Origin: a virus
Lineage: Duplodnaviria > Heunggongvirae > Uroviricota > Caudoviricetes
IMG/VR virus record: IMGVR_UViG_2778261358_000016
Span: 1 to 14,074 of that record
DNA: 14,074 bases
Strand: one strand, 5' to 3'
The stretch's first letter is position 1, and the number at the start of each line of letters is the position of its first letter. The translations under genes were made by a program, and so were the position numbers. The notes beneath the pieces were generated by a model. That model saw only the letters and a list, made by a program, of their open reading frames with translations. It had not been told where the DNA came from and did no database searches. Shown piece by piece: positions 1 to 12,613 of this stretch.

Positions 1-71
1 ATGATATACATGTTGATTACACTATGCATCGACAACGATGCCACATTTTTGGCTGGTTGGCAAATCTGTCA

Positions 72-257
72 TCAGGGCGGACAACAACGCCACGATCTCA
101 TCTTTCTTGGGCAATTTTTAAGAAAATCCTCAAGGGCAAATCTTTTTGGCCTTGCTTCCTGTTCATGGTCAGGCATTTCATCCATTTCTCTTAATTTTTT
201 TTCTACCTGTCTTTCAAGTATGGATAATGCGATTTCCCGTAATTCTTCGTTGTTCAT
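72..257 (-). CDS. Hypothetical small protein (61 aa), the only leftward gene in the island; candidate regulator
   Basis: AGGAG Shine-Dalgarno about 7 nt upstream of the ATG at 257 (minus strand); divergent from the rightward operon and adjacent to operator-like dyads; no recognisable motif. Confidence 0.35.
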   Translation of the reverse strand: MNNEELREIALSILERQVEKKLREMDEMPDHEQEARPKRFALEDFLKNCPRKMRSWRCCPP

Positions 258-482
258 TGTCTACTCCTGTAAAGAAATGCGCCGTAGTTCCTCACACCAC
301 GGCGCTGATAGTTTTTATCCTTTGGGTTCTATGCCGCGTTGCTGTAATTCTTTGCGGATTATTCGCTTTATCCAGGCAGCAAGAGAATCATCGCCGTCCT
401 GTTGTTGTGCCTTTTCCATCTTTTCCCGTAAGTCAGGATCTAAACGGAACTGGAACGGAGGATTACCACGCCTTTCGTTTTT

Positions 483-543
483 GTGTATTGACACGTTAAT
501 TACACCTCATATAATGTATTTATGTGTAATGACACATTACACA
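483..543 (+). promoter_or_regulatory. Two operator-like sites sharing GTGTAWTGACACRTTA (483..498 and 524..539); second lies in a perfect 8-bp inverted repeat TGTGTAAT-N5-ATTACACA (523..543)
   Basis: Direct repeat of a 16-bp motif spaced 41 bp apart, one copy overlapping the -35 and one just downstream of the -10; dyad symmetry typical of dimeric repressor binding. Confidence 0.4.
488..515 (+). promoter_or_regulatory. Sigma70-type promoter with consensus -35 TTGACA (488..493) and -10 TATAAT (510..515), 16-bp spacer, driving the rightward small-gene operon
   Basis: Exact hexamer matches read directly from sequence; located about 110 bp upstream of the first rightward gene with a strong RBS. 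Confidence 0.5.
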
Positions 544-623
544 CAATCAACACAAAAAGCAAAGCCCCGCACTGTAGGAGCAGTAACGGGGCTTCTAACC
601 AACAACGTAAACTAGGAGCCGTT

Positions 624-1947: not shown

Positions 1948-2247
1948 ATGAAACTTAAATATTCTGGCTTAACTGCCAGTGGCAAAACTCGCACTAAATT
2001 CATGCGCGGTGATATTTACCGCGACCAGTACGGCGGCACGGTAATGATTAAGGGCGTGGAGGAACGGCGCGTAACCTACCGTCGTGAAGGCTACGAATAT
2101 GATTGCGTGATGCCTGTTTATCAGTTCGACCGTGATTTTTCTCTGGTGCAGGCTGTACCGCGTAACGTTCCAACCAGCAGGGAGAAAGCACGCGCCAATA
2201 TTCAGGAAATAAGAAAGATGTTGAATGTATTCAGGGGTAAAAAATGA
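1948..2247 (+). CDS. Hypothetical small protein F (99 aa), translationally coupled to the replication helicase
   Basis: Stop TGA overlaps rep ATG (ATGA at 2244..2247); GGAG upstream; no recognisable motif. Confidence 0.5.
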   Translation: MKLKYSGLTASGKTRTKFMRGDIYRDQYGGTVMIKGVEERRVTYRREGYEYDCVMPVYQFDRDFSLVQAVPRNVPTSREKARANIQEIRKMLNVFRGKK

Positions 2248-3650
2248 AACTGGCACCGAACGTAAAACTGTTACCGAAAGATAAACACACTGAGGCGGTT
2301 ATTTTTGCGGGTGATAATGCTCACTCCTTTGCAGAACATTACATGATTGCACAGGCCAAAAAAGCAGGCGATCCCATCCCTCCGGTTTACCTGGGCCGTT
2401 ATCAGTTAAGCGAACTGGACAATTTACAGATTGTTGATGAAGGACGATACAGAGCAAAGGTCATACGCGCCGGAAACCTGGACGATATGCAGATGCTGAC
2501 CATTGCCACCAAACTGGCGATCGCAGGTGTCCGGGAAGCGCGGTTACTTTCAGAGAATTTCGAACTACTGGAGGACTGGAGCGAGCAACTACCGCGACTT
2601 AAAGAAACCTGGGAACGCGGGGAAAGTCTGGTCATGAATGGCGTAAAGCGAAAAATCACACTTCCCATCTCATGGGGTTCTGAGGGATTCGACGCGCAGC
2701 AAAGCTACGTAATTAAGGGGCTTATTCCGGCTGAATCATTATGCAGCACCTACGGGGCCAGCGGTTCTTATAAATTGTTCCTGGCTATTTCCTGGTCGTG
2801 CCATGTTGCCACAGGTATGGCATGGGGAGGCCGCAGGGTAAGTAAGGGCGCGGTTATCTATATCGCTGGCGAAGGCAGTATGGGCGTAAAACGCCGCGTT
2901 AAGGCGTGGGAGATAACCCACGACAAGGTGGTTACGGATTTGTGCATCGTTAACGCGCCTGTCTTCCCTGCATCGCCTGACTATGTGGAGCAGGTTATCA
3001 GGACTGCCGGACTTGTTAAGAGCAGAACGGGCGAAAATGTGCGGCTGATTGTGATCGACACGCTGGCCCGTTGCTTTGGTGGGAATGATGAAAATGATTC
3101 CCGTGATATGGGCGCATTTATCCAGGGGTGTGACGCGATAAAGCAGGCCACAGGGGCCACGGTACTGGTGGTTCACCATTCCGGCAAGGATGAAACAAAG
3201 GGGGCGCGAGGTTCCAGCGCATTCCGCGCTGCACTGGATGCAGAGTACCGAATCAGCCGGGAAAATTCAGACGTTACAGCACTGGTGGCGGCGTGTACGA
3301 AGATGAAAGACGCAGAGGAGCCAAAAGAGAGCGCATACGACCTTAAAAGCGTGGAGGTGTTTACCGATACCGATGGCGAAGAGATTGTGTCCATGGTGGT
3401 GATTGACGTTCCCCGCGCCCCTGCTGAACTGGAGCGCATAGAGGAGGCCGGGAACAAGACGGAAAATCACACGGCTTTATGGGGTTGTATCCGGTCACGT
3501 ATACAGCATGGTGATAAATGCACGATCCCGCTGCTACGTGATGACATGAAAAAGCTGGGATATGACACAAAACACCTTAAACGATGGTTAGCCAAACTGG
3601 AAAAAGACGGCGTGATTTGCGTCGATGGGGATGATGTTCACCCACTGTAA
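2244..3650 (+). CDS. Replication protein, RepA-like RecA-fold helicase (AAA_25 family) with N-terminal and C-terminal extra domains
   Basis: Motifs resembling RSF1010 RepA-type helicases: GASGSYKLFLAISW (P-loop region, deviant), VIYIAGEGS, VIDTLARCF (Walker B-like), VLVVHHSGKDETKGARGSSAF (HH..K and RGSS motifs); iteron array immediately downstream. Confidence 0.7.
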   Translation: MKLAPNVKLLPKDKHTEAVIFAGDNAHSFAEHYMIAQAKKAGDPIPPVYLGRYQLSELDNLQIVDEGRYRAKVIRAGNLDDMQMLTIATKLAIAGVREARLLSENFELLEDWSEQLPRLKETWERGESLVMNGVKRKITLPISWGSEGFDAQQSYVIKGLIPAESLCSTYGASGSYKLFLAISWSCHVATGMAWGGRRVSKGAVIYIAGEGSMGVKRRVKAWEITHDKVVTDLCIVNAPVFPASPDYVEQVIRTAGLVKSRTGENVRLIVIDTLARCFGGNDENDSRDMGAFIQGCDAIKQATGATVLVVHHSGKDETKGARGSSAFRAALDAEYRISRENSDVTALVAACTKMKDAEEPKESAYDLKSVEVFTDTDGEEIVSMVVIDVPRAPAELERIEEAGNKTENHTALWGCIRSRIQHGDKCTIPLLRDDMKKLGYDTKHLKRWLAKLEKDGVICVDGDDVHPL

Positions 3651-3714
3651 AAAGTGGGCGTTAAAAGTGGGCGTTAAAAGTGGGCGTTAAAAGTGGGCGT
3701 TAAAAGTGGGAATA
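3650..3714 (+). repeat. Iteron array: four perfect tandem copies of 13-bp AAAAGTGGGCGTT plus one degenerate copy; further GTGGG-core copies in both orientations to about 3895; candidate origin of replication
   Basis: Perfect 13-bp direct repeats start at the rep stop codon; inverted copy CGCCCACTTT at 3744..3753; additional AAGTGGGC/AGGTGGGC copies at 3774..3890. Confidence 0.7.
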
Positions 3715-3891
3715 GTGGGTAATTTAACTGGAATTTAACAAAATCGCCCACTTTCCCACGTGTATACATCCCAAAAAGTGGGCACTAAAAAAATACTTAT
3801 GAAACAGTACGATATAAAACCACAAAATCCCAGGTGGGACGAAGTGGGAAACCATGAAAAGTTGGTAGAAAAAGTGGGCACAGGTGGGCGC

Positions 3892-4143
3892 ATGACCAGA
3901 AAAACCAGAGATAAGACAGCACCAAAATATCGCGCATTAGACATGACAGAGCACGCCTTAAAGGTGGCAATCAGAACGATAGACCGACACGTAGGGGAAG
4001 GATACGCGAAGGAACATCCCGACCTGATAAGCGCATTCATGACCACAGCAGCGGCAAACTTTGCCACGCTGACAGAACGGGAGATCGCAGAAGCAGAACA
4101 GGTAACAACCATCAACGTTAAAACCGGAGAGGTGGAATCATGA
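3892..4143 (+). CDS. Hypothetical protein (83 aa; start uncertain, ORF is open from 3760)
   Basis: AGGTGG RBS before ATG at 3892; upstream part of the open frame is occupied by iteron copies; stop overlaps the SSB start. Confidence 0.4.
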   Translation: MTRKTRDKTAPKYRALDMTEHALKVAIRTIDRHVGEGYAKEHPDLISAFMTTAAANFATLTEREIAEAEQVTTINVKTGEVES

Positions 4144-4550
4144 CAGCACAGATAGCGGCTTACGGGCGGCTGGTGGACGACCCGCAGGTAAAACAGACCA
4201 GTAAGGGCACACCGATGACGCTGGCGCGTATGGCGGTATCGTTGCCATGTAGTCAGGCGCAGGATGGGCAGGCGACGTTATGGCTATCGGTCATCGCATT
4301 TGGTAAGCAGGCCGACTTCCTGGCTAAACATCAAAAAGGCGACGTTGCCAGCGTATCCGGCACGATGCAGGTCAGCCAGTGGACCGGACAGAACGGGGAA
4401 ACGCGGCAGGGTTATCAGGTTATTGCAGACAGCGTAATCAGTGCCCGTGCGGCACGTCCTGGCGGGAACAGACGCAAAACCACAGGCACACAGGGTAATC
4501 AGCCACCAGCGGGAGGCGATGACCCTTACGGTGACGGTATTCCGTTCTGA
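4140..4550 (+). CDS. Single-stranded DNA-binding protein (SSB) homolog
   Basis: OB-fold core resembling E. coli SSB (WLSVIAFGKQADFLAKHQKGDVASVSGTMQVSQWTGQNGETRQGYQVIADSV), Gly/Gln-rich linker and acidic C-terminal tip DDPYGDGIPF (compare DDDIPF); strong GGAGAGGTGG RBS. Confidence 0.75.
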   Translation: MTAQIAAYGRLVDDPQVKQTSKGTPMTLARMAVSLPCSQAQDGQATLWLSVIAFGKQADFLAKHQKGDVASVSGTMQVSQWTGQNGETRQGYQVIADSVISARAARPGGNRRKTTGTQGNQPPAGGDDPYGDGIPF

Positions 4551-4862: not shown

Positions 4863-4981
4863 TCATGTTTTGTAAATTATTTGTTCGTGGTTGTTCCACG
4901 TTGCTCGCTGACCGGAACGGCATATTTTACCCGACCTGAATCATGATTATTCTCGCCCGTGGTGCCAGGACGCTGGGGCCA

Positions 4982-5031
4982 TTTTCCCGCCTGTTAATGT
5001 GCTCGCCAATATTCATTACCAGGCGGGAAAA
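4982..5031 (+). repeat. Perfect 12-bp inverted repeat TTTTCCCGCCTG-N26-CAGGCGGGAAAA in the leader of the capsid operon
   Basis: Arms are exact reverse complements; about 90 bp upstream of the capsid start; not followed by a T-run on either strand. Confidence 0.5.
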
Positions 5032-5120
5032 CGATCGGTGCGATTACTGATTTCCTTATGAAAAACGGTTGAGTGTTTGCCGCGTCCTGGAGTTCCTTAC
5101 TTAACCCCAGGACTTTTTTT

Positions 5121-6278
5121 ATGCCGAGAATAATCGAATTACGCCAGCAGAAAACCGCCATTAAAAATCAGATGCGCGACATGCTGGAGAACGCGGAAAA
5201 AGAAAACCGCAGTCTTAACGATGCTGAGGGCGCAAAATTTGACGAATTACGCGCTAAAGCTGAATCCCTCGATAAAGACATTTCCCGCCTTGAAGCCATT
5301 GCAGACGAAGAGCGCAGCAAGCCAGGTAAAAGCAGCCAGACCACTGACCCCGCAGAACTACGCAACTACATTCTGACAGGTGAAACCCGCGCATTAAGTA
5401 CAGGCGTTCCCGCTGATGGTGGTTATACCGTTATCCCCGAACTGAACACCGAAATCATGCGAATGCTGACGGATGAATCCACCATGCGCCGCATCTGTAC
5501 CGTGAAGAAAATCAGCAGCAACGAGTTTAAGCAGCTTGTTTCCGCTGGCGGTGCGACCGTTAACCACGGTGAAGAGGGTAAGACACGCGAACAGACCAGC
5601 ACCCCGCAGATTAACGAGGTGAGCATTAAGCTGTATCCGGTCTATGCGTACCCGCGCACCACATAGGAAATCGTGGATTTTTCCGATGTGGACATCCTTT
5701 CATGGCTGACGGGTGAGATTGGCGACACCTTCACGGAAACCGAAGAAAGCGATCTGGTTGTGGGCGACGGTGACAAAAAAGCAAAAGGTTTTTTATCCGT
5801 ACCCCGTGCAGAGAAGAACGACAAAGAGCGTGATTTTGGTACGTTGCAGGTAATTAAACCTTCCGAATCTCTGGCGTGGACATCTGCGGACCCGCTGATC
5901 GACCTGAAATTTGCATTACGTAAAAAATACCGCAAAAACGCGGTCTGGGTGGTTAACTCCACGACGGCGGCAAAACTTCAGAAGGTGAAGAACGCGAACG
6001 GTGATTACATCTGGCGCGACCGTTTACAGGCGGGTGATCCTGATACGTTGCTGGGCCTTCCGGTCGAATATCTGGAGTTTATGCCTGATAACGTTATTGC
6101 CCTGGGTGACTTCAAACGCGGTTACTACATTGTTGATCACGAAACAGGTGTTCGCACCAGACCGGACAACCTCACAGAGCCGGGCTTCATCAAAATTTTC
6201 ACGCAGAAATATTTAGGCGGTGGCGTGGTGGATTCGAACGCGATCAAGATTCTGGAACTGCCACAGGACGACGATTAA
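5121..6278 (+). pseudogene. HK97-family major capsid protein interrupted by a single in-frame amber codon (TAG 5664..5666); pseudogene or suppression-dependent
   Basis: ORFs 5073..5666 and 5673..6278 are in the same frame, separated only by TAG; conserved capsid region continues across the stop (YPRTT*EIVDFSDVDILSWL...GDGDKKAKGFL); N-terminal coiled-coil delta-like domain; AGGA RBS before ATG 5121. Confidence 0.7.
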
Positions 6279-6288
6279 CAGCATACAG

Positions 6289-6319
6289 AAGGGGCTTAAA
6301 AGCCCCTTTAGTGTTTTAT
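6289..6319 (+). terminator. Intrinsic terminator/attenuator directly after the major capsid gene
   Basis: AGGGGCTT-AAA-AGCCCCT hairpin followed by TTAGTGTTTT; overlaps the protease start region. Confidence 0.5.
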
Positions 6320-6890
6320 GGGTGAAAAAATTATGAAGAGTATGGAAATCCGGTCATCGGAAATCACTACCAGCGGAGCCGGTACGCTGACGGGCTACGT
6401 TGTTCGCTGGGATAAGCTTTCAGAACTGCTATGGGGGGAGTTTTACGAAAAATTCCAGCGGGGGGCGTTTACTGAGTGGCTTGCGGCGGGTAATGACGTT
6501 CGCGGCCTGTATGAGCATGACCACAGCATGTTACTGGGGCGCACCCGTTCCGGCACGCTGAAACTGGAAGAGGACGAAACAGGGTTACGCTTTGAACTGA
6601 CCCCACCGGATACCAGTACAGGGCGCGACGTTATCGAACTGGTTAAACGAGGTGATATATCCGGCATGAGCTTTGGCTTTCGTTCCCGTAAGGATGTATG
6701 GGATACCACAACAGATCCATGCGTGCGCACCGTGCTGGTGGCGGAACTATACGAAATTACCGTTACATCCGTACCGGCTTACCCTGATTCCGGCGTGGAG
6801 CTGGCCCGCCGCTCCCTGTACGAGCAGCACCCCGAAAAAATGCCGCGTGCGGATAATCGCCGCTGGTGGGCGGATTTAGCGGGGGTGTGA
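6318..6890 (+). CDS. Prohead maturation protease, HK97 family (start may be 6333 or 6342)
   Basis: Position next to capsid and portal; motifs LYEHDHSMLLGRT and GDISGMSFGF consistent with HK97-type prohead proteases. Confidence 0.75.
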   Translation: MGEKIMKSMEIRSSEITTSGAGTLTGYVVRWDKLSELLWGEFYEKFQRGAFTEWLAAGNDVRGLYEHDHSMLLGRTRSGTLKLEEDETGLRFELTPPDTSTGRDVIELVKRGDISGMSFGFRSRKDVWDTTTDPCVRTVLVAELYEITVTSVPAYPDSGVELARRSLYEQHPEKMPRADNRRWWADLAGV

Positions 6891-8731: not shown

Positions 8732-9171
8732 TGCCGTGGCAACCATTAAGACGATGCACAGAACCAGGCTGTAACAGGCGCGTGAAGTCCGGCAAGTGTG
8801 AGGAGCACAGGCGGGCGGCATGGCGTGCAGAGGATGCCAGACGAGGACACCGCCGCGCGCGTGGGTACTCCAGACAGTGGGACAAATACCGCGCCATGTA
8901 TCTGAGTAAAAACCCGTTATGCGTGCGATGCCTTGAGAAGGGGATATATACGCCCGCCGTGGTGGTGGATCACATTATCCCGATTAATGGCGGTGATGAT
9001 GTTCTCTTCTGGCCCGAATGGAACCATCAGCCATTGTGCCAGGCGTGCCATAACCAGAAAACGAAATGGCTTGATCCGGCAACAAAAAGCAAGCGTGCCG
9101 CAGGTGGATTTCGTGAAGAGGAAGAACGGGCCGCTAACCGCAATAACTGGATGTATGACGCTGATGAATGA
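8731..9171 (+). CDS. HNH endonuclease associated with the terminase (HK97 gp74-like role)
   Basis: Cys-rich zinc-binding N-terminus and HNH motif VVVDHIIPINGGDD...NHQPLCQACHNQKT; sits immediately upstream of terS/terL. Confidence 0.8.
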   Translation: MPWQPLRRCTEPGCNRRVKSGKCEEHRRAAWRAEDARRGHRRARGYSRQWDKYRAMYLSKNPLCVRCLEKGIYTPAVVVDHIIPINGGDDVLFWPEWNHQPLCQACHNQKTKWLDPATKSKRAAGGFREEEERAANRNNWMYDADE

Positions 9172-9337
9172 GCGGGAACAAAACCGCCTTATCCGTGGAC
9201 TTATAAGGCAGCGTGACGCATGGAAGACACAGGAAACAGGGCATAAAGATAAAGCGTCAGGACGCGCAGAACGCATCACAGCGAAGCGATTAACCGACCG
9301 TGACTGCGAGGTTATGGAATGTTTCCGCAATCGCTGA
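9164..9337 (+). CDS. Hypothetical small basic protein (57 aa)
   Basis: ATG overlaps HNH stop (ATGAATGA); no clear RBS; Arg/Lys-rich; could be non-coding. Confidence 0.3.
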   Translation: MNEREQNRLIRGLIRQRDAWKTQETGHKDKASGRAERITAKRLTDRDCEVMECFRNR

Positions 9338-9460
9338 TGAGGCTGTATGACGGGGTGGGGGGCGTTTTCAGGACAAACCCGACCCCGCCGGGCACCGAAC
9401 GCCTCCTCAAATTTTTATGCACGGGAATTTTTTGAAAAATAATCTGGCGAAAAAATAAGC
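9338..9460 (+). other. Putative cos region between HNH and terS
   Basis: G-rich imperfect dyad GGGGTGGGG-N17-CCCGACCCC at about 9352..9386; position matches the HNH-cos-terS-terL arrangement known from HK97-like cos phages. Confidence 0.3.
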
Positions 9461-9817
9461 ATGGCAAGACCACCGAAAGCCCCCGCCTACCTGGATGATA
9501 TCGCCGTGAAGCAGTGGCGGGAAAAATCGCGGCAGCTTGCGGAACGGGGAGACCTTACCCCCGCCGACTGGAGTAATCTGGAACTGTATTGTGTCAACTA
9601 CTCCATTTACCGGAAAGCCGTTGCAGACCTTGCGGCGCGCGGGTTCAGCATTGTTAACAGTCAGGGCGGCGAGAGCAGAAACCCCGCATTAAGCGCAAAA
9701 TCCGACGCTGAAAGAGTGATGATAAAAATGGCCTCCTTGCTCGGTTTTGACCCGATAAGCCGCCGTAAAAATCCACCGGAAACAGAAGAAGAGGACGAGC
9801 TTGACCGCCTGGAATAA
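9461..9817 (+). CDS. Terminase small subunit (P27-family-like)
   Basis: About 118 aa starting MARPPKAP, acidic C-terminus, immediately upstream of and overlapping terL. Confidence 0.65.
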   Translation: MARPPKAPAYLDDIAVKQWREKSRQLAERGDLTPADWSNLELYCVNYSIYRKAVADLAARGFSIVNSQGGESRNPALSAKSDAERVMIKMASLLGFDPISRRKNPPETEEEDELDRLE

Positions 9818-11757: not shown

Positions 11758-12173
11758 CTGGTTGATATTTTCGAAATTCGCCAGCGGCGAACATCGGGGA
11801 AACCAGCCTAACCCGTTGATTCTTTCGGAAACAGCCATTGGCGGAATCCGGCGCGGTAACTTGCTGATATTCCCGATAACGCAAAATTGCGTGGCTGAAT
11901 GAACATTATGATTACTTATGATTACGCAGATGATTAAGGCCTAAACCGTTGATTCTTCCCAATTTCCACAGACTGTGGAAGTTGGCGCGGTAACTTACTG
12001 AGATTAAAGCAAAGCGCAAAATTGCGCCGACTACATCCCTCACATGCGAAATTTTCGCAGTTTAATTACTCGCCAGTTTGATCGTTAACCCGCTGATATT
12101 TTCGGGAACCTCAATTTGAGGAAGTCGGCGCGGTAACTGGTTGATACTTTCGACCTCCTCAATTTGAGGAGGT
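11748..12173 (+). repeat. Array of diverged about 133-bp tandem units, each with a Y box (TAAMCCGYTGATWYTTYC) and an X box (GGCGCGGTAACTNNNTGANAT) followed by palindromes of unit-specific sequence
   Basis: X boxes at 11748, 11848, 11982, 12125; Y boxes at 11809, 11942, 12084; palindromes TTCGCC-N3-GGCGAA, CGCAAAATTGCG (twice), TTCCACAGACTGTGGAA, CCTCAATTTGAGG (twice, once extended to 11-bp arms). Confidence 0.7.
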
Positions 12174-12613
12174 CGGGGCACAGAAAAACAACGAATATGT
12201 TGTTTTTGGGAATGGTCATAATGACCACGCAGACCATCAAGGCAACCACAACGAACATCGTTACGGTTGGAGCTTTTACCCCACTGGGGGAAAGGTATTA
12301 CGATAATCATAACACCTACCGAACAGGTAAAACCCACCAGCCTGATTAACAGTTAACCGGAAAAAAAATCCGGTAGCCCCGTTATGGGGATCCCCATATC
12401 GACATTAACGCCCCTCATGAATTGGTGCGCTTCCCCCTGGAAAGATTACCCGCCTGTATATTTCTTGTGTCTATTTGTTCCACGTTGTTTCATACAGTGC
12501 ACCGAACGGTGTAGTTAATGGTGTAGTCAATTTGCTGTTTTTAGCACTTTTTGCAGTGTGGGTTGTTTAATTAAATCAATTGGTTGCCTTGCTGTGGTGA
12601 TAAAAGGACATAT

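What the first reader, a model, noticed from the sequence alone, without database searches (positions are those of the whole stretch)
3650..3895. 13-bp iteron array immediately after the helicase gene: candidate satellite origin
Four perfect tandem copies of AAAAGTGGGCGTT begin at the rep stop codon, followed by degenerate and inverted copies with a GTGGGC core over about 240 bp, partly overlapping the start of the next ORF. Iterons next to a Rep helicase are the usual origin layout in PICI-type satellites.
Basis: partly seen in the sequence, partly recalled or inferred. Interest (0 to 1): 0.5.

Follow-up and report, generated by a model that had tools for sequence, protein, structure and literature searches.

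The report
Satellite replication origin with expanded iterons
The repeats are almost certainly the binding sites that mark the replication origin of a phage-satellite island in E. coli; this is a known kind of origin, though the four perfect copies are a recent strain-specific expansion.

Summary
A perfect 13-bp tandem array (3650-3710) starts at the last base of the rep stop codon. The 241-bp gap between rep and the next gene holds 13 GTGGG cores, and a 14th lies in the last rep codons; no other 251-bp stretch of the window has more than 3.

The element is an EcCIEDL933-type capsid-forming PICI at the roxA|phoQ site. It carries a RepA-family helicase as initiator.

Evidence that this is the Rep-bound origin:
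- **Layout:** the same pattern occurs after this rep family across Enterobacterales: direct repeats, an inverted repeat, a TGTATACA element, a direct repeat, an AT-rich spacer, then direct repeats.
- **Covariation:** the repeat core tracks one residue at the start of the predicted recognition helix of Rep's C-terminal winged-helix domain. Asn pairs with GTGAG, His or Lys with GTGGG, and Ser, Gly or Ala with GTGCG. This held in 67 of 67 loci and in four later tests.
- **Natural point mutant:** two Rep C-terminal domains that differ only His to Asn have GTGGG and GTGAG iterons.
- **Sister islands:** two islands at the same site carry unrelated initiators with unrelated iterons at the same position. 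The EcCICFT073 origin was tested experimentally.

Corrections: about 20 of 24 E. coli genomes with this rep allele have one perfect copy, so four is a +39-bp expansion. The array does not overlap the next gene, which starts at ATG 3892.

This is a new member of a known kind. Replication itself is untested.

The parts
1948..2247 (+). DUF4222 gene overlapping the rep start. It is the conserved left neighbour of the rep-ori cassette.
   Evidence: Pfam DUF4222, E 5e-24. It is 85% identical to the EcCICFT073 homologue, although the initiators differ. One DUF4222 protein (WP_000770163.1) occurs with two different iteron types, so it does not set iteron specificity.
2244..3650 (+). rep: a 468-aa RepA-family helicase-initiator. 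It has an N-terminal domain (aa 1-126), a RecA-type helicase core and a C-terminal winged-helix domain.
   Evidence: Pfam AAA_25, E 6e-41. PDB RSF1010 RepA 1g8y matches by sequence and by fold. PGAP names it 'helicase RepA family protein'. AlphaFold model. The N-terminal 126 aa are 45% identical to the initiators of EcCICFT073 and EcCIEDL933, and the rest is unrelated.
3441..3647 (+). Coding region for the Rep C-terminal winged-helix domain (aa about 400-468). The predicted recognition helix is aa 445-454.
   Evidence: Model of the domain alone: pLDDT 85, helix-helix-helix-strand-strand. Foldseek best matches are winged-helix DNA-binding domains (DtxR/IdeR, PcaR, LexA, MCM WH), TM about 0.6, rmsd 2-3 A, probability 0.9-0.99 but weak E-values of 0.06 or more.
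3573..3575 (+). Codon CAC for His444, the residue just before the predicted recognition helix. It covaries with the 4th base of the iteron core.
   Evidence: Motif K-X-[FLM]-x-R-W. X=N pairs with GTGAG, X=H or K with GTGGG, X=S with GTGCG, in 67 of 67 loci with at least 4 sites. Later tests agreed: P0118 (S, C), P0117 (G, C), P0115 (A, C), and P0093/P0035 (N, A).
3650..3701 (+). Four perfect tandem copies of AAAAGTGGGCGTT, the expanded part of the left iteron set.
   Evidence: The common allele has a single copy here and E110019 has three. L001 has four, but its first copy reads GAGGG.
3702..3723 (+). Two degenerate left iterons, AAAAGTGGGAAT and ATAGTGGGTAAT.
   Evidence: They are positionally conserved in related alleles, where the allele's own core replaces GTGGG.
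3719..3745 (.). First AT-rich spacer (TAATTTAACTGGAATTTAACAAAAT).
3745..3759 (-). Two inverted iterons (CGCCCACTTTCCCAC on the + strand).
   Evidence: One or two inverted copies occupy this position in nearly all related loci.
3761..3768 (.). Palindrome TGTATACA between the inverted and the following direct iteron. It is conserved whatever the iteron type and is a candidate melting or helicase-loading point.
Evidence: Invariant columns in alignment A4.
3773..3785 (+). Direct iteron AAAAAGTGGGCAC, facing the inverted pair.
   Evidence: (I1, I15). As single-stranded DNA, the inverted and direct copies could pair as a 9-bp stem (z = -3.3).
3786..3830 (.). Second AT-rich spacer, the least stable duplex segment near the origin.
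   Evidence: The least stable 30-mers within 3300-4300 start at 3786-3790. GC is 0.30 at 3760-3819.
3831..3891 (+). Right iteron set. Cores lie at 3834, 3844, 3874 and 3884, with a mutated copy GTTGG at 3861-3865.
   Evidence: T at 3863 is specific to this window; L001, L086, L087 and L088 have G.
3892..4143 (+). 83-aa protein of unknown function (phrog_1231), the conserved right neighbour of the origin.
   Evidence: PGAP start in L001. phrog_1231, E 8e-52. 76% identical to the EcCICFT073 homologue.
4140..4550 (+). Single-stranded DNA-binding protein gene, part of the replication module.
   Evidence: Pfam SSB, E 4e-17. Annotated as SSB.

Best explanation
The 241-bp region between rep and the next gene (3651-3891) is the replication origin of a capsid-forming phage-inducible chromosomal island.

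Proposed mechanism:
1. After induction and excision, Rep is made. Rep is a RepA/DnaB-like hexameric helicase fused to a C-terminal winged-helix domain.
2. The winged-helix domains bind the AAAGTGGG iterons. There is a left set of direct repeats, a central pair in opposite orientation around TGTATACA, and a right set of direct repeats.
3. Binding distorts and melts the AT-rich DNA, either at the central TATA-like element or at the 3786-3830 spacer.
4. The helicase loads itself there. The island's SSB coats the single strands, and host primase and polymerase complete the replisome.

Shown here: the repeat architecture, its conservation, its exact covariation with one Rep residue, and the swapping of rep and ori together as a cassette.
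Inferred: binding, melting, self-loading and priming.

The four perfect copies are a recent 39-bp slippage expansion of the outermost left iteron. Its effect on initiation or copy control is unknown.
For: **Position and layout** match the PICI origin rule: immediately 3' of rep, with two iteron sets around AT-rich DNA and opposed iterons. See PMC6092414 (Fig. 2a legend and text), PMC9371898 and window.

**Conservation.** The same layout follows this rep family in E. coli, Xenorhabdus, Pantoea, Pectobacterium, Serratia, Morganella, Kosakonia, Klebsiella and others.

**Concerted change.** At 11 positionally homologous sites, the 4th core base switches G to A between E. coli alleles.

**Covariation with Rep.**
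- The residue after the invariant Lys of K-X-[FLM]-x-R-W predicts the base in 67 of 67 loci.
- A tree built from the helicase core alone shows about 7-8 co-changes.
- Four later look-ups agreed.
- One of these is a natural pair whose 74-aa C-terminal domains differ only His to Asn, with iterons GTGGG and GTGAG.

**Structure.** The residue sits at the N-terminal cap of helix 3 of a confidently modelled winged-helix domain.

**The repeats follow rep, not other genes.**
- L004 and L005 share one Rep and the same iterons but have different packaging modules.
- L002 and L003 share one DUF4222 protein but have different iterons.

**Cassette exchange.** EcCICFT073 and EcCIEDL933 sit at the same roxA|phoQ site with the same flanking genes. 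They have unrelated initiators and unrelated iterons (TCTACC and TGCGGGTTA types) in the same gap. The EcCICFT073 rep-ori segment supported plasmid maintenance, and deleting rep or ori impaired it (PMC6092414).

**Episomal relative.** A 16,971-bp circular Klebsiella record deposited as a plasmid is a cf-PICI-like element with this Rep class and layout.

**Replication module.** An SSB gene lies two genes downstream.
Against: - No experiment on this Rep class or this origin was found in the searchable literature. Whether Fig. 2a of PMC6092414 shows this allele could not be determined.
- The Rep C-terminal coding region lies within 100 bp of the iterons, so some co-inheritance is expected from linkage alone. 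The point-mutant pair and the repeated co-changes argue that linkage is not the whole story.
- No primase domain was recognised in Rep, so priming is unexplained.
- Iteron orientation is mostly one-directional on both sides and is not symmetric.
- Foldseek E-values for the small winged-helix domain are weak, 0.06 or more.
- This copy of the island may be decaying. It has a capsid nonsense codon and one right-arm iteron is mutated.
Confidence: 0.85

Rival explanations
1. The repeats are Rep-binding sites whose main job is control, not initiation. They would titrate or 'handcuff' Rep, or let Rep regulate read-through into the downstream genes, as the extra iterons of iteron plasmids do. The true origin would then be only the central part, or would lie elsewhere.
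For: The outer left copies vary in number (1, 3 or 4) among near-identical islands without apparent loss of the element, so they are dispensable in number. The last right iteron abuts the start codon of the next gene. No promoter-like site and no + strand terminator was found in 3400-4300, so the region is probably transcribed through.
Against: The complete layout, including both outer sets, is conserved across genera. It matches the layout of the tested PICI origins. This reading also does not exclude an origin function, because control iterons and origin iterons coexist in plasmids (established knowledge of P1, F and RK2).
Confidence: 0.1
2. The repeats are a packaging signal (a cos- or pac-type terminase binding site) or operator sites for a transcription factor of the island such as AlpA or PerC. 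On this reading they are not Rep sites.
For: Small-terminase and regulator binding sites are often short repeats (general knowledge). The island encodes TerS, TerL, HNH and PerC.
Against: The repeats track the Rep C-terminal residue exactly. Islands with identical Rep and iterons carry different packaging modules (L004 and L005). The same cassette precedes tail genes, a ClpP-capsid fusion or ProQ in other elements. HNH-dependent cos sites normally lie next to terS, and the window has a separate 290-bp gap there at 9171-9461.
Confidence: 0.03
3. The four-copy array is only a slippage-generated microsatellite with no function. The remaining GTGGG copies would be chance or compositional bias.
For: The perfect identity of the four copies and their copy-number polymorphism show that recent slippage did occur.
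Against: There are 14 cores in 251 bp against at most 3 elsewhere. None of 200 shuffles reaches the observed AGTGGG count. The sites are positionally conserved, with concerted base changes, across alleles and genera.
Confidence: 0.02

Closest known systems
Replication origins of phage-inducible chromosomal islands: SaPI ori bound by SaPI Rep, and the EcCICFT073 pri-rep-ori (PMC6092414; PMC9371898)
   Same: The origin lies immediately downstream of rep. It consists of short iterons in two sets around AT-rich DNA, with opposed iterons near the centre. The initiator is itself a helicase with a C-terminal winged-helix domain that confers iteron specificity. Each rep allele has its own iterons. EcCICFT073 sits at the same chromosomal site, has the same flanking genes (DUF4222, 83-85-aa protein, SSB, PerC) and shares the first 126 residues of the initiator.
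   Different: The helicase here is a RecA-fold RepA/DnaB-like (AAA_25) protein. SaPI Reps are AAA+ helicases related to MCM, and EcCICFT073 has a primase-family protein. No primase domain or separate pri gene was recognised. The iteron is AAAGTGGG at 13-bp spacing in the left set. This origin has not been tested experimentally.
EcCIEDL933, the prototype capsid-forming PICI (bioRxiv 10.1101/2022.09.08.507074)
   Same: It has the same attachment site (roxA|phoQ) and the same packaging operon: HK97-type capsid, protease, portal, connectors, HNH, TerS and TerL. It also has the same gene order, with an origin-like repeat region in the same gap between the initiator gene and the 83-aa gene.
   Different: Its initiator is a 710-aa DUF927 protein with TGCGGGTTA-type repeats. 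Only the first ~126 residues resemble the window's Rep. The window's island therefore carries a different rep-ori cassette. Its capsid gene also carries a nonsense codon.
IncQ plasmid RSF1010 replicon (RepA helicase, RepC iteron-binding initiator, RepB' primase, oriV)
   Same: The helicase core is homologous to RSF1010 RepA (1g8y). Both origins use direct-repeat iterons next to AT-rich DNA.
   Different: In RSF1010, iteron binding is done by a separate protein (RepC) and priming by RepB' at ssi sites (established knowledge). Here a winged-helix domain is fused to the helicase, and no RepC or RepB homologue was seen in the window.
Phage P4 alpha protein with ori and crr
   Same: It is a satellite replicon in which one protein combines helicase and origin recognition through a C-terminal DNA-binding domain that reads short repeated octamers (established knowledge; discussed in PMC6092414).
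   Different: P4 alpha has a primase domain and a superfamily-3 helicase. Its iterons and genome organisation are unrelated. PMC6092414 treats P4 and the PICIs as separate lineages.
Classical iteron plasmid origins (pPS10, R6K, RK2, F, P1)
   Same: Repeated initiator-binding sites lie next to an AT-rich unwinding element. Extra iterons can act in copy control.
   Different: Those iterons are typically 17-22 bp, are bound by WH1-WH2 Rep initiators that are not helicases, and usually come with DnaA boxes. No DnaA box within one mismatch lies in 3600-3950, and the initiator here is the helicase itself.

Membership tests
PICI-type replication origin (SaPI / EcCI ori) | Lies immediately 3' of the replication initiator gene | tested here: met
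   The array starts on the last base of the rep stop codon. The region fills the gap up to the next gene.
PICI-type replication origin (SaPI / EcCI ori) | Two sets of short iterons flanking AT-rich DNA | tested here: met
   The left set is 3650-3723 and the right set 3831-3891. AT-rich stretches lie at 3719-3745 and 3786-3830, with GC down to 0.30.
PICI-type replication origin (SaPI / EcCI ori) | Iterons in opposite orientation around the central region | tested here: met
   Inverted copies at 3747 and 3755 face the direct copy at 3778 across TGTATACA. The arrangement is conserved in relatives. The outer sets all point one way, so the layout is not fully symmetric.
PICI-type replication origin (SaPI / EcCI ori) | The initiator is a helicase with a C-terminal winged-helix DNA-binding domain | tested here: met
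   AAA_25 / RepA-like helicase core. The C-terminal domain is modelled as a winged helix, pLDDT 85. This rests on prediction only.
PICI-type replication origin (SaPI / EcCI ori) | Iteron sequence is specific to the rep allele | tested here: met
   Residue-base covariation holds in 67 of 67 loci and in four later tests. Unrelated initiators at the same site have unrelated iterons.
PICI-type replication origin (SaPI / EcCI ori) | Rep binds the iterons and melts the AT-rich region | not testable with these tools
   This needs EMSA or footprinting and permanganate probing.
PICI-type replication origin (SaPI / EcCI ori) | The rep-ori segment drives autonomous, Rep-dependent replication | not testable with these tools
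   It was shown only for the EcCICFT073 cassette, which has a different initiator (PMC6092414). A circular 17-kb Klebsiella relative deposited as a plasmid is suggestive only.
Capsid-forming PICI (the element that carries the origin) | About 10-18 kb, with integrase, regulator, replication module and its own capsid, protease, portal, connector, HNH, TerS and TerL genes, and no lysis genes or complete tail module | tested here: met
   Pfam hits. The near-identical island L001 shows int and alpA just left of the window and phoQ on the right. The packaging operon and site are the same as in EcCIEDL933. The capsid gene is interrupted in this copy.
Classical iteron-plasmid origin | 17-22-bp iterons bound by a WH1-WH2 Rep initiator, with DnaA boxes | tested here: not met
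   The repeat unit is 13 bp with a core of about 9 bp. No DnaA box within one mismatch was found. The adjacent protein is a helicase.
IncQ (RSF1010) replicon | Separate RepC initiator and RepB' primase acting with the RepA helicase at oriV | tested here: not met
   Only the helicase core is homologous. No RepC or RepB family hit was found among the window's proteins.

The most novel reading that the evidence does not exclude
In this helicase-initiator family, a single residue at the N-terminal cap of the winged-helix recognition helix sets one base of the iteron: Asn gives A, His or Lys gives G, and Ser, Gly or Ala gives C. All 8-14 iterons of an origin would then be re-written in concert when that residue changes. 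This would create new replicon specificities among satellites that share integration sites and neighbouring genes. Iteron copy-number expansions such as the four-copy array would be a second, faster way to tune Rep occupancy. If true, this is a naturally occurring, readable recognition code. It would allow orthogonal Rep-ori pairs to be designed, and satellite compatibility to be predicted from sequence.
Probability: 0.45. Interest if true: 0.55.

Novelty: new member of a known kind. Interest (0 to 1): 0.3.

Why it matters
- **It locates the origin.** It places the probable origin of a widespread class of E. coli and Enterobacterales phage satellites. These use a RepA/DnaB-like helicase fused to a winged-helix domain. 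Their replication module does not appear to have been dissected in the papers I could search.
- **rep and ori move as one cassette.** In these islands rep and ori swap together between conserved flanks, with the joint inside rep after residue ~126. This explains why otherwise near-identical satellites carry unrelated initiators.
- **It gives a testable specificity rule.** The residue-to-base covariation predicts that changing His444 to Asn, together with G to A in the iterons, should switch specificity.

For genome annotation the practical point is modest. This is an ordinary satellite origin, and the eye-catching perfect array is a polymorphic expansion.

Tried and rejected
- **Promoter and terminator scan of 3400-4300.** It found no sigma-70-like site and no + strand terminator. 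A promoter role for the repeats is therefore not supported.
- **Rfam search of 3400-4200 at a permissive threshold.** No match.
- **DnaA box, IHF consensus and GATC in 3600-3950.** None found. A classical iteron-plasmid layout is rejected.
- **Whole-Rep fold search.** It recovered only the helicase core, so the C-terminal domain had to be modelled separately.
- **N-terminal domain (aa 1-140).** No Pfam or NCBIfam hit and no informative PHROG hit. Its function stays unknown.
- **Was this allele already shown in Fig. 2a or S10 of PMC6092414?** The supplement text names four Pri-Rep alleles but gives no sequences. A guessed region of the E. coli 042 chromosome did not contain the island. The question is unresolved.
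- **Do co-resident islands need different iteron types?** This was considered as an orthogonality argument. Several genomes carry two or three islands of the same type, for example L008 and L013, L007 and L016, and L043 and L044. The idea is not supported as a general rule.
- **The inverted GTGGG at 3641-3646 inside the last rep codons.** It is not conserved in other alleles and is probably incidental.
Full report
**1. What is in the sequence**

The rep ORF (2244-3650) ends in TAA at 3648-3650. Tandem Repeats Finder reports an array at 3650-3710 with period 13, 4.7 copies, 100% identity and unit AAAAGTGGGCGTT.

Beyond the four perfect copies there are two degenerate direct copies (cores at 3706 and 3715). 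Next come an AT-rich stretch and two inverted copies (3747, 3755). These are followed by the palindrome TGTATACA (3761-3768), a direct copy (3778) and a second AT-rich stretch. A right-hand set then has cores at 3834, 3844, 3874 and 3884, plus a copy that reads GTTGG at 3861-3865.

In all, 14 GTGGG cores lie in 3641-3891, and no other 251-bp stretch of the window has more than 3. AGTGGG occurs 19 times in the window, against 5.4 +/- 2.5 in shuffles, and 11 of the 19 lie in this region. GC content drops to 0.30-0.37 between 3720 and 3820. The least stable 30-mers of the neighbourhood start at 3786-3790.

**2. Context**

Pfam assigns the neighbouring genes as follows:
- DUF4222
- an AAA_25 (RepA-like) helicase
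- SSB
- PerC
- an HK97-type capsid, prohead protease and portal
- head completion and connector proteins
- HNH
- TerS and TerL
- phoQ on the opposite strand

A 99.8% identical island in E. coli Z1323HEC0393 (L001) shows the whole element lying between roxA and phoQ. It has an integrase and alpA just left of the window. The next gene after rep starts at the ATG that corresponds to window 3892. The repeat region is therefore intergenic.

The prototype capsid-forming PICI, EcCIEDL933, lies at the same site with the same packaging operon. The classical PICI EcCICFT073 also lies there.

**3. Rep**

- **Helicase core.** It matches the RSF1010 RepA helicase by sequence (1g8y) and by fold. It also matches the helicase modules of phage primase-helicases.
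- **C-terminal domain.** AlphaFold gives a confident C-terminal domain (aa ~400-468) with helix-helix-helix-strand-strand topology. Its best structural matches are winged-helix DNA-binding domains (DtxR/IdeR, PcaR, LexA, MCM WH). TM is about 0.6, although E-values are weak for so small a domain.
- **N-terminal domain.** Residues 1-126 form a confident alpha/beta domain of unknown family. They are 45% identical to the N-termini of the EcCICFT073 and EcCIEDL933 initiators. Those initiators are otherwise unrelated: a 584-aa primase-family protein and a 710-aa DUF927 protein.

**4. Comparative test of the origin reading**

I collected rep-downstream regions from E. coli. I added 80 loci from one genome per species across Enterobacterales.

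*Layout.* Nearly all loci have the same layout after the rep stop: two to four direct iterons, one or two inverted iterons, a TGTATA/TATATA element, one direct iteron, a spacer of about 50-60 bp, and four to five direct iterons.

*Covariation.* The iteron sequence differs between alleles. It tracks the residue X in the motif K-X-[FLM]-x-R-W, which sits immediately before the third helix of the winged-helix domain (His444 in the window):

| Residue X | Iteron core |
|---|---|
| Asn | GTGAG |
| His or Lys | GTGGG |
| Ser | GTGCG |

This held in 67 of 67 loci with at least four sites. A tree built only from the helicase core shows about 7-8 joint changes.

*Concerted change.* Within E. coli, 11 positionally homologous sites switch G to A together between alleles.

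*Later predictions.* Four look-ups made after the rule was stated all fitted:
- P0118 (Ser) has GTGCG.
- P0117 (Gly) and P0115 (Ala) also have GTGCG.
- P0093 and P0035 have a 74-aa C-terminal domain that differs from the L090 domain only by His to Asn. They have AAAAGTGAGG where L090 has AAAAGTGGGG.

*Linkage.* Because the C-terminal coding region is adjacent to the iterons, linkage alone would give some co-inheritance. It would not give a consistent residue-to-base rule across independent switches.

**5. The repeats follow rep, not other genes**

- L004 and L005 encode the identical Rep and have identical iterons. One has a lambda-like capsid and decoration module, the other an HK97-type module.
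- L002 and L003 share the identical DUF4222 protein but have GTGAG and GTGGG iterons.
- In other elements the same cassette is followed by tail genes, a ClpP-capsid fusion or ProQ.

**6. Cassette exchange**

EcCICFT073, EcCIEDL933 and the window's island share several features:
- the integration site
- the DUF4222 gene (85% identity)
- the first ~126 residues of the initiator
- the 83-85-aa protein after the origin (76% identity)
- SSB and PerC

The rest of the initiator and the repeats differ completely. The iterons are TCTACC-type in EcCICFT073, TGCGGGTTA-type in EcCIEDL933 and AAAGTGGG here.

For EcCICFT073, Fillol-Salom et al. showed that the rep-ori segment supports plasmid maintenance, and that deleting rep or ori impairs it. 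They describe E. coli PICI origins as two iteron sets flanking an AT-rich region 3' of rep (PMC6092414).

For SaPIs, the Rep helicases recognise 5-6-nt iterons through a C-terminal winged-helix domain. Six to twelve iterons lie immediately downstream of rep around an AT-rich centre, with opposed iterons, and the helicases load themselves (PMC9371898). The window fits this pattern with a helicase of a different superfamily.

**7. The four perfect copies**

Twenty-four complete E. coli genomes carry this rep allele at 96% identity or more.

| Genomes | Length of match to the 461-bp query | Perfect copies |
|---|---|---|
| About 20 | 422-423 bp (39 bp shorter) | one |
| E110019 (rep is a pseudogene) | 448 bp | three |
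| Z1323HEC0393 | full length | four, but the first copy reads GAGGG |

The alignment and the comparison confirm these states. The window is thus the only sequence seen with four perfect copies. The array is a recent slippage expansion at the distal end of the left set, so the spacing of the proximal sites to the central element is unchanged. Its functional effect is unknown.

The window also carries a G-to-T change in a right-arm iteron (3863) and a nonsense codon in the capsid gene. This copy of the island may therefore be decaying.

**8. Rivals**

- **Promoter or operator role.** This lacks support. No sigma-70-like site was found, and the repeats do not track any regulator.
- **Packaging-site role.** This is contradicted by section 5.
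- **Chance or pure microsatellite.** This is contradicted by section 4.
- **Control role for the outer iterons.** A titration or handcuffing role remains possible and is compatible with an origin.
- **Other checks.** No Rfam family matches. No DnaA box, IHF consensus or GATC is present.

**9. Extrachromosomal relative**

pKp_Goe_795-4 of K. pneumoniae is a 16,971-bp circular record typed as a non-mobilizable plasmid. It encodes an integrase, a Rep of this family (X = Ser), capsid and terminase genes. It has GTGCG iterons in the standard layout. This is consistent with an excised, replicating satellite. An assembly artefact cannot be excluded.

**10. Verdict**

This is the probable origin of a capsid-forming PICI that uses a RepA-type helicase-initiator. 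It is a new member of a known kind.

New here:
- the residue-to-base covariation
- the mosaic joint inside rep
- the conserved central TGTATACA element
- the finding that the perfect array is a polymorphic expansion

Not shown here: binding, melting, self-loading, priming and replication.

Noticed in passing
window 5121-6278 (stop codon at 5664-5666): The major capsid gene of this capsid-forming island has a premature stop (Gln182 to stop). The 99%-identical island in strain Z1323HEC0393 has an intact 385-aa gene. This copy probably cannot build its own capsids.
   Followed up: partly
window 3861-3865 (T at 3863): One right-arm iteron reads GTTGG in the window. It reads GTGGG in the four other sequences with this rep allele that were examined (L001, L086, L087, L088).
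   Followed up: partly
window 2244-2621 (Rep aa 1-126); L092 6242-6634; L100 8039-8419: The first ~126 residues of Rep form a confidently modelled alpha/beta domain with no family assignment. They are 45% identical to the N-termini of two otherwise unrelated initiators, the EcCICFT073 primase-family protein and the EcCIEDL933 DUF927 protein. The recombination joint of the rep-ori cassette therefore lies inside rep, and this domain probably contacts a shared partner.
   Followed up: partly
window 3761-3768; same relative position in L002-L004, L025, L031, L039, L042, L057, L064, L065, L077, L081, L093, L095, L096, L098, L101: A TGTATACA or TATATA-type element lies between the inverted and the direct central iteron. 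It is conserved across genera whatever the iteron sequence. It could be the melting or loading point, or a host-factor site.
   Followed up: partly
L098 (CP018459.1, whole record; rep 5081-6445 on the - strand; repeats 4866-5081): A 16,971-bp circular K. pneumoniae 'plasmid' is really a capsid-forming-PICI-like element. It has an integrase, a Rep of this family, capsid and terminase genes, and also an annotated tape measure gene. It has GTGCG iterons in the standard layout.
   Followed up: partly
L101 2013-2490 and L102 1998-2477: In these E. coli loci the gap after rep is about 480 bp. It contains a second inverted-iteron / TATATATA / direct-iteron unit downstream of the first complete origin layout, and the next gene is ProQ-like.
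   Followed up: no
L093 3354-4419 and L095 3364-4404: In a Salmonella genome and in a metagenome contig, the DUF4222 / RepA-helicase / iteron cassette is followed by tail assembly chaperone and tape measure genes, not by the 83-aa protein and SSB. The cassette therefore also serves other kinds of elements.
   Followed up: no
L087 (E. coli E110019, rep cut at locus 1-351): The one genome with a three-copy array has rep annotated as a pseudogene with an internal stop.
   Followed up: no
window 11906-11925 and 12508-12531: Two short perfect or near-perfect tandem duplications (TTATGATTAC x2 and GGTGTAGTCAAT x2) lie in the non-coding stretch between the last island gene and phoQ. They may be near the right attachment site.
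   Followed up: no
window 1-615: The 204-aa + strand ORF at the left edge has no family hit. In the near-identical annotated island it overlaps two short - strand genes, so it is probably not a real gene.
   Followed up: no
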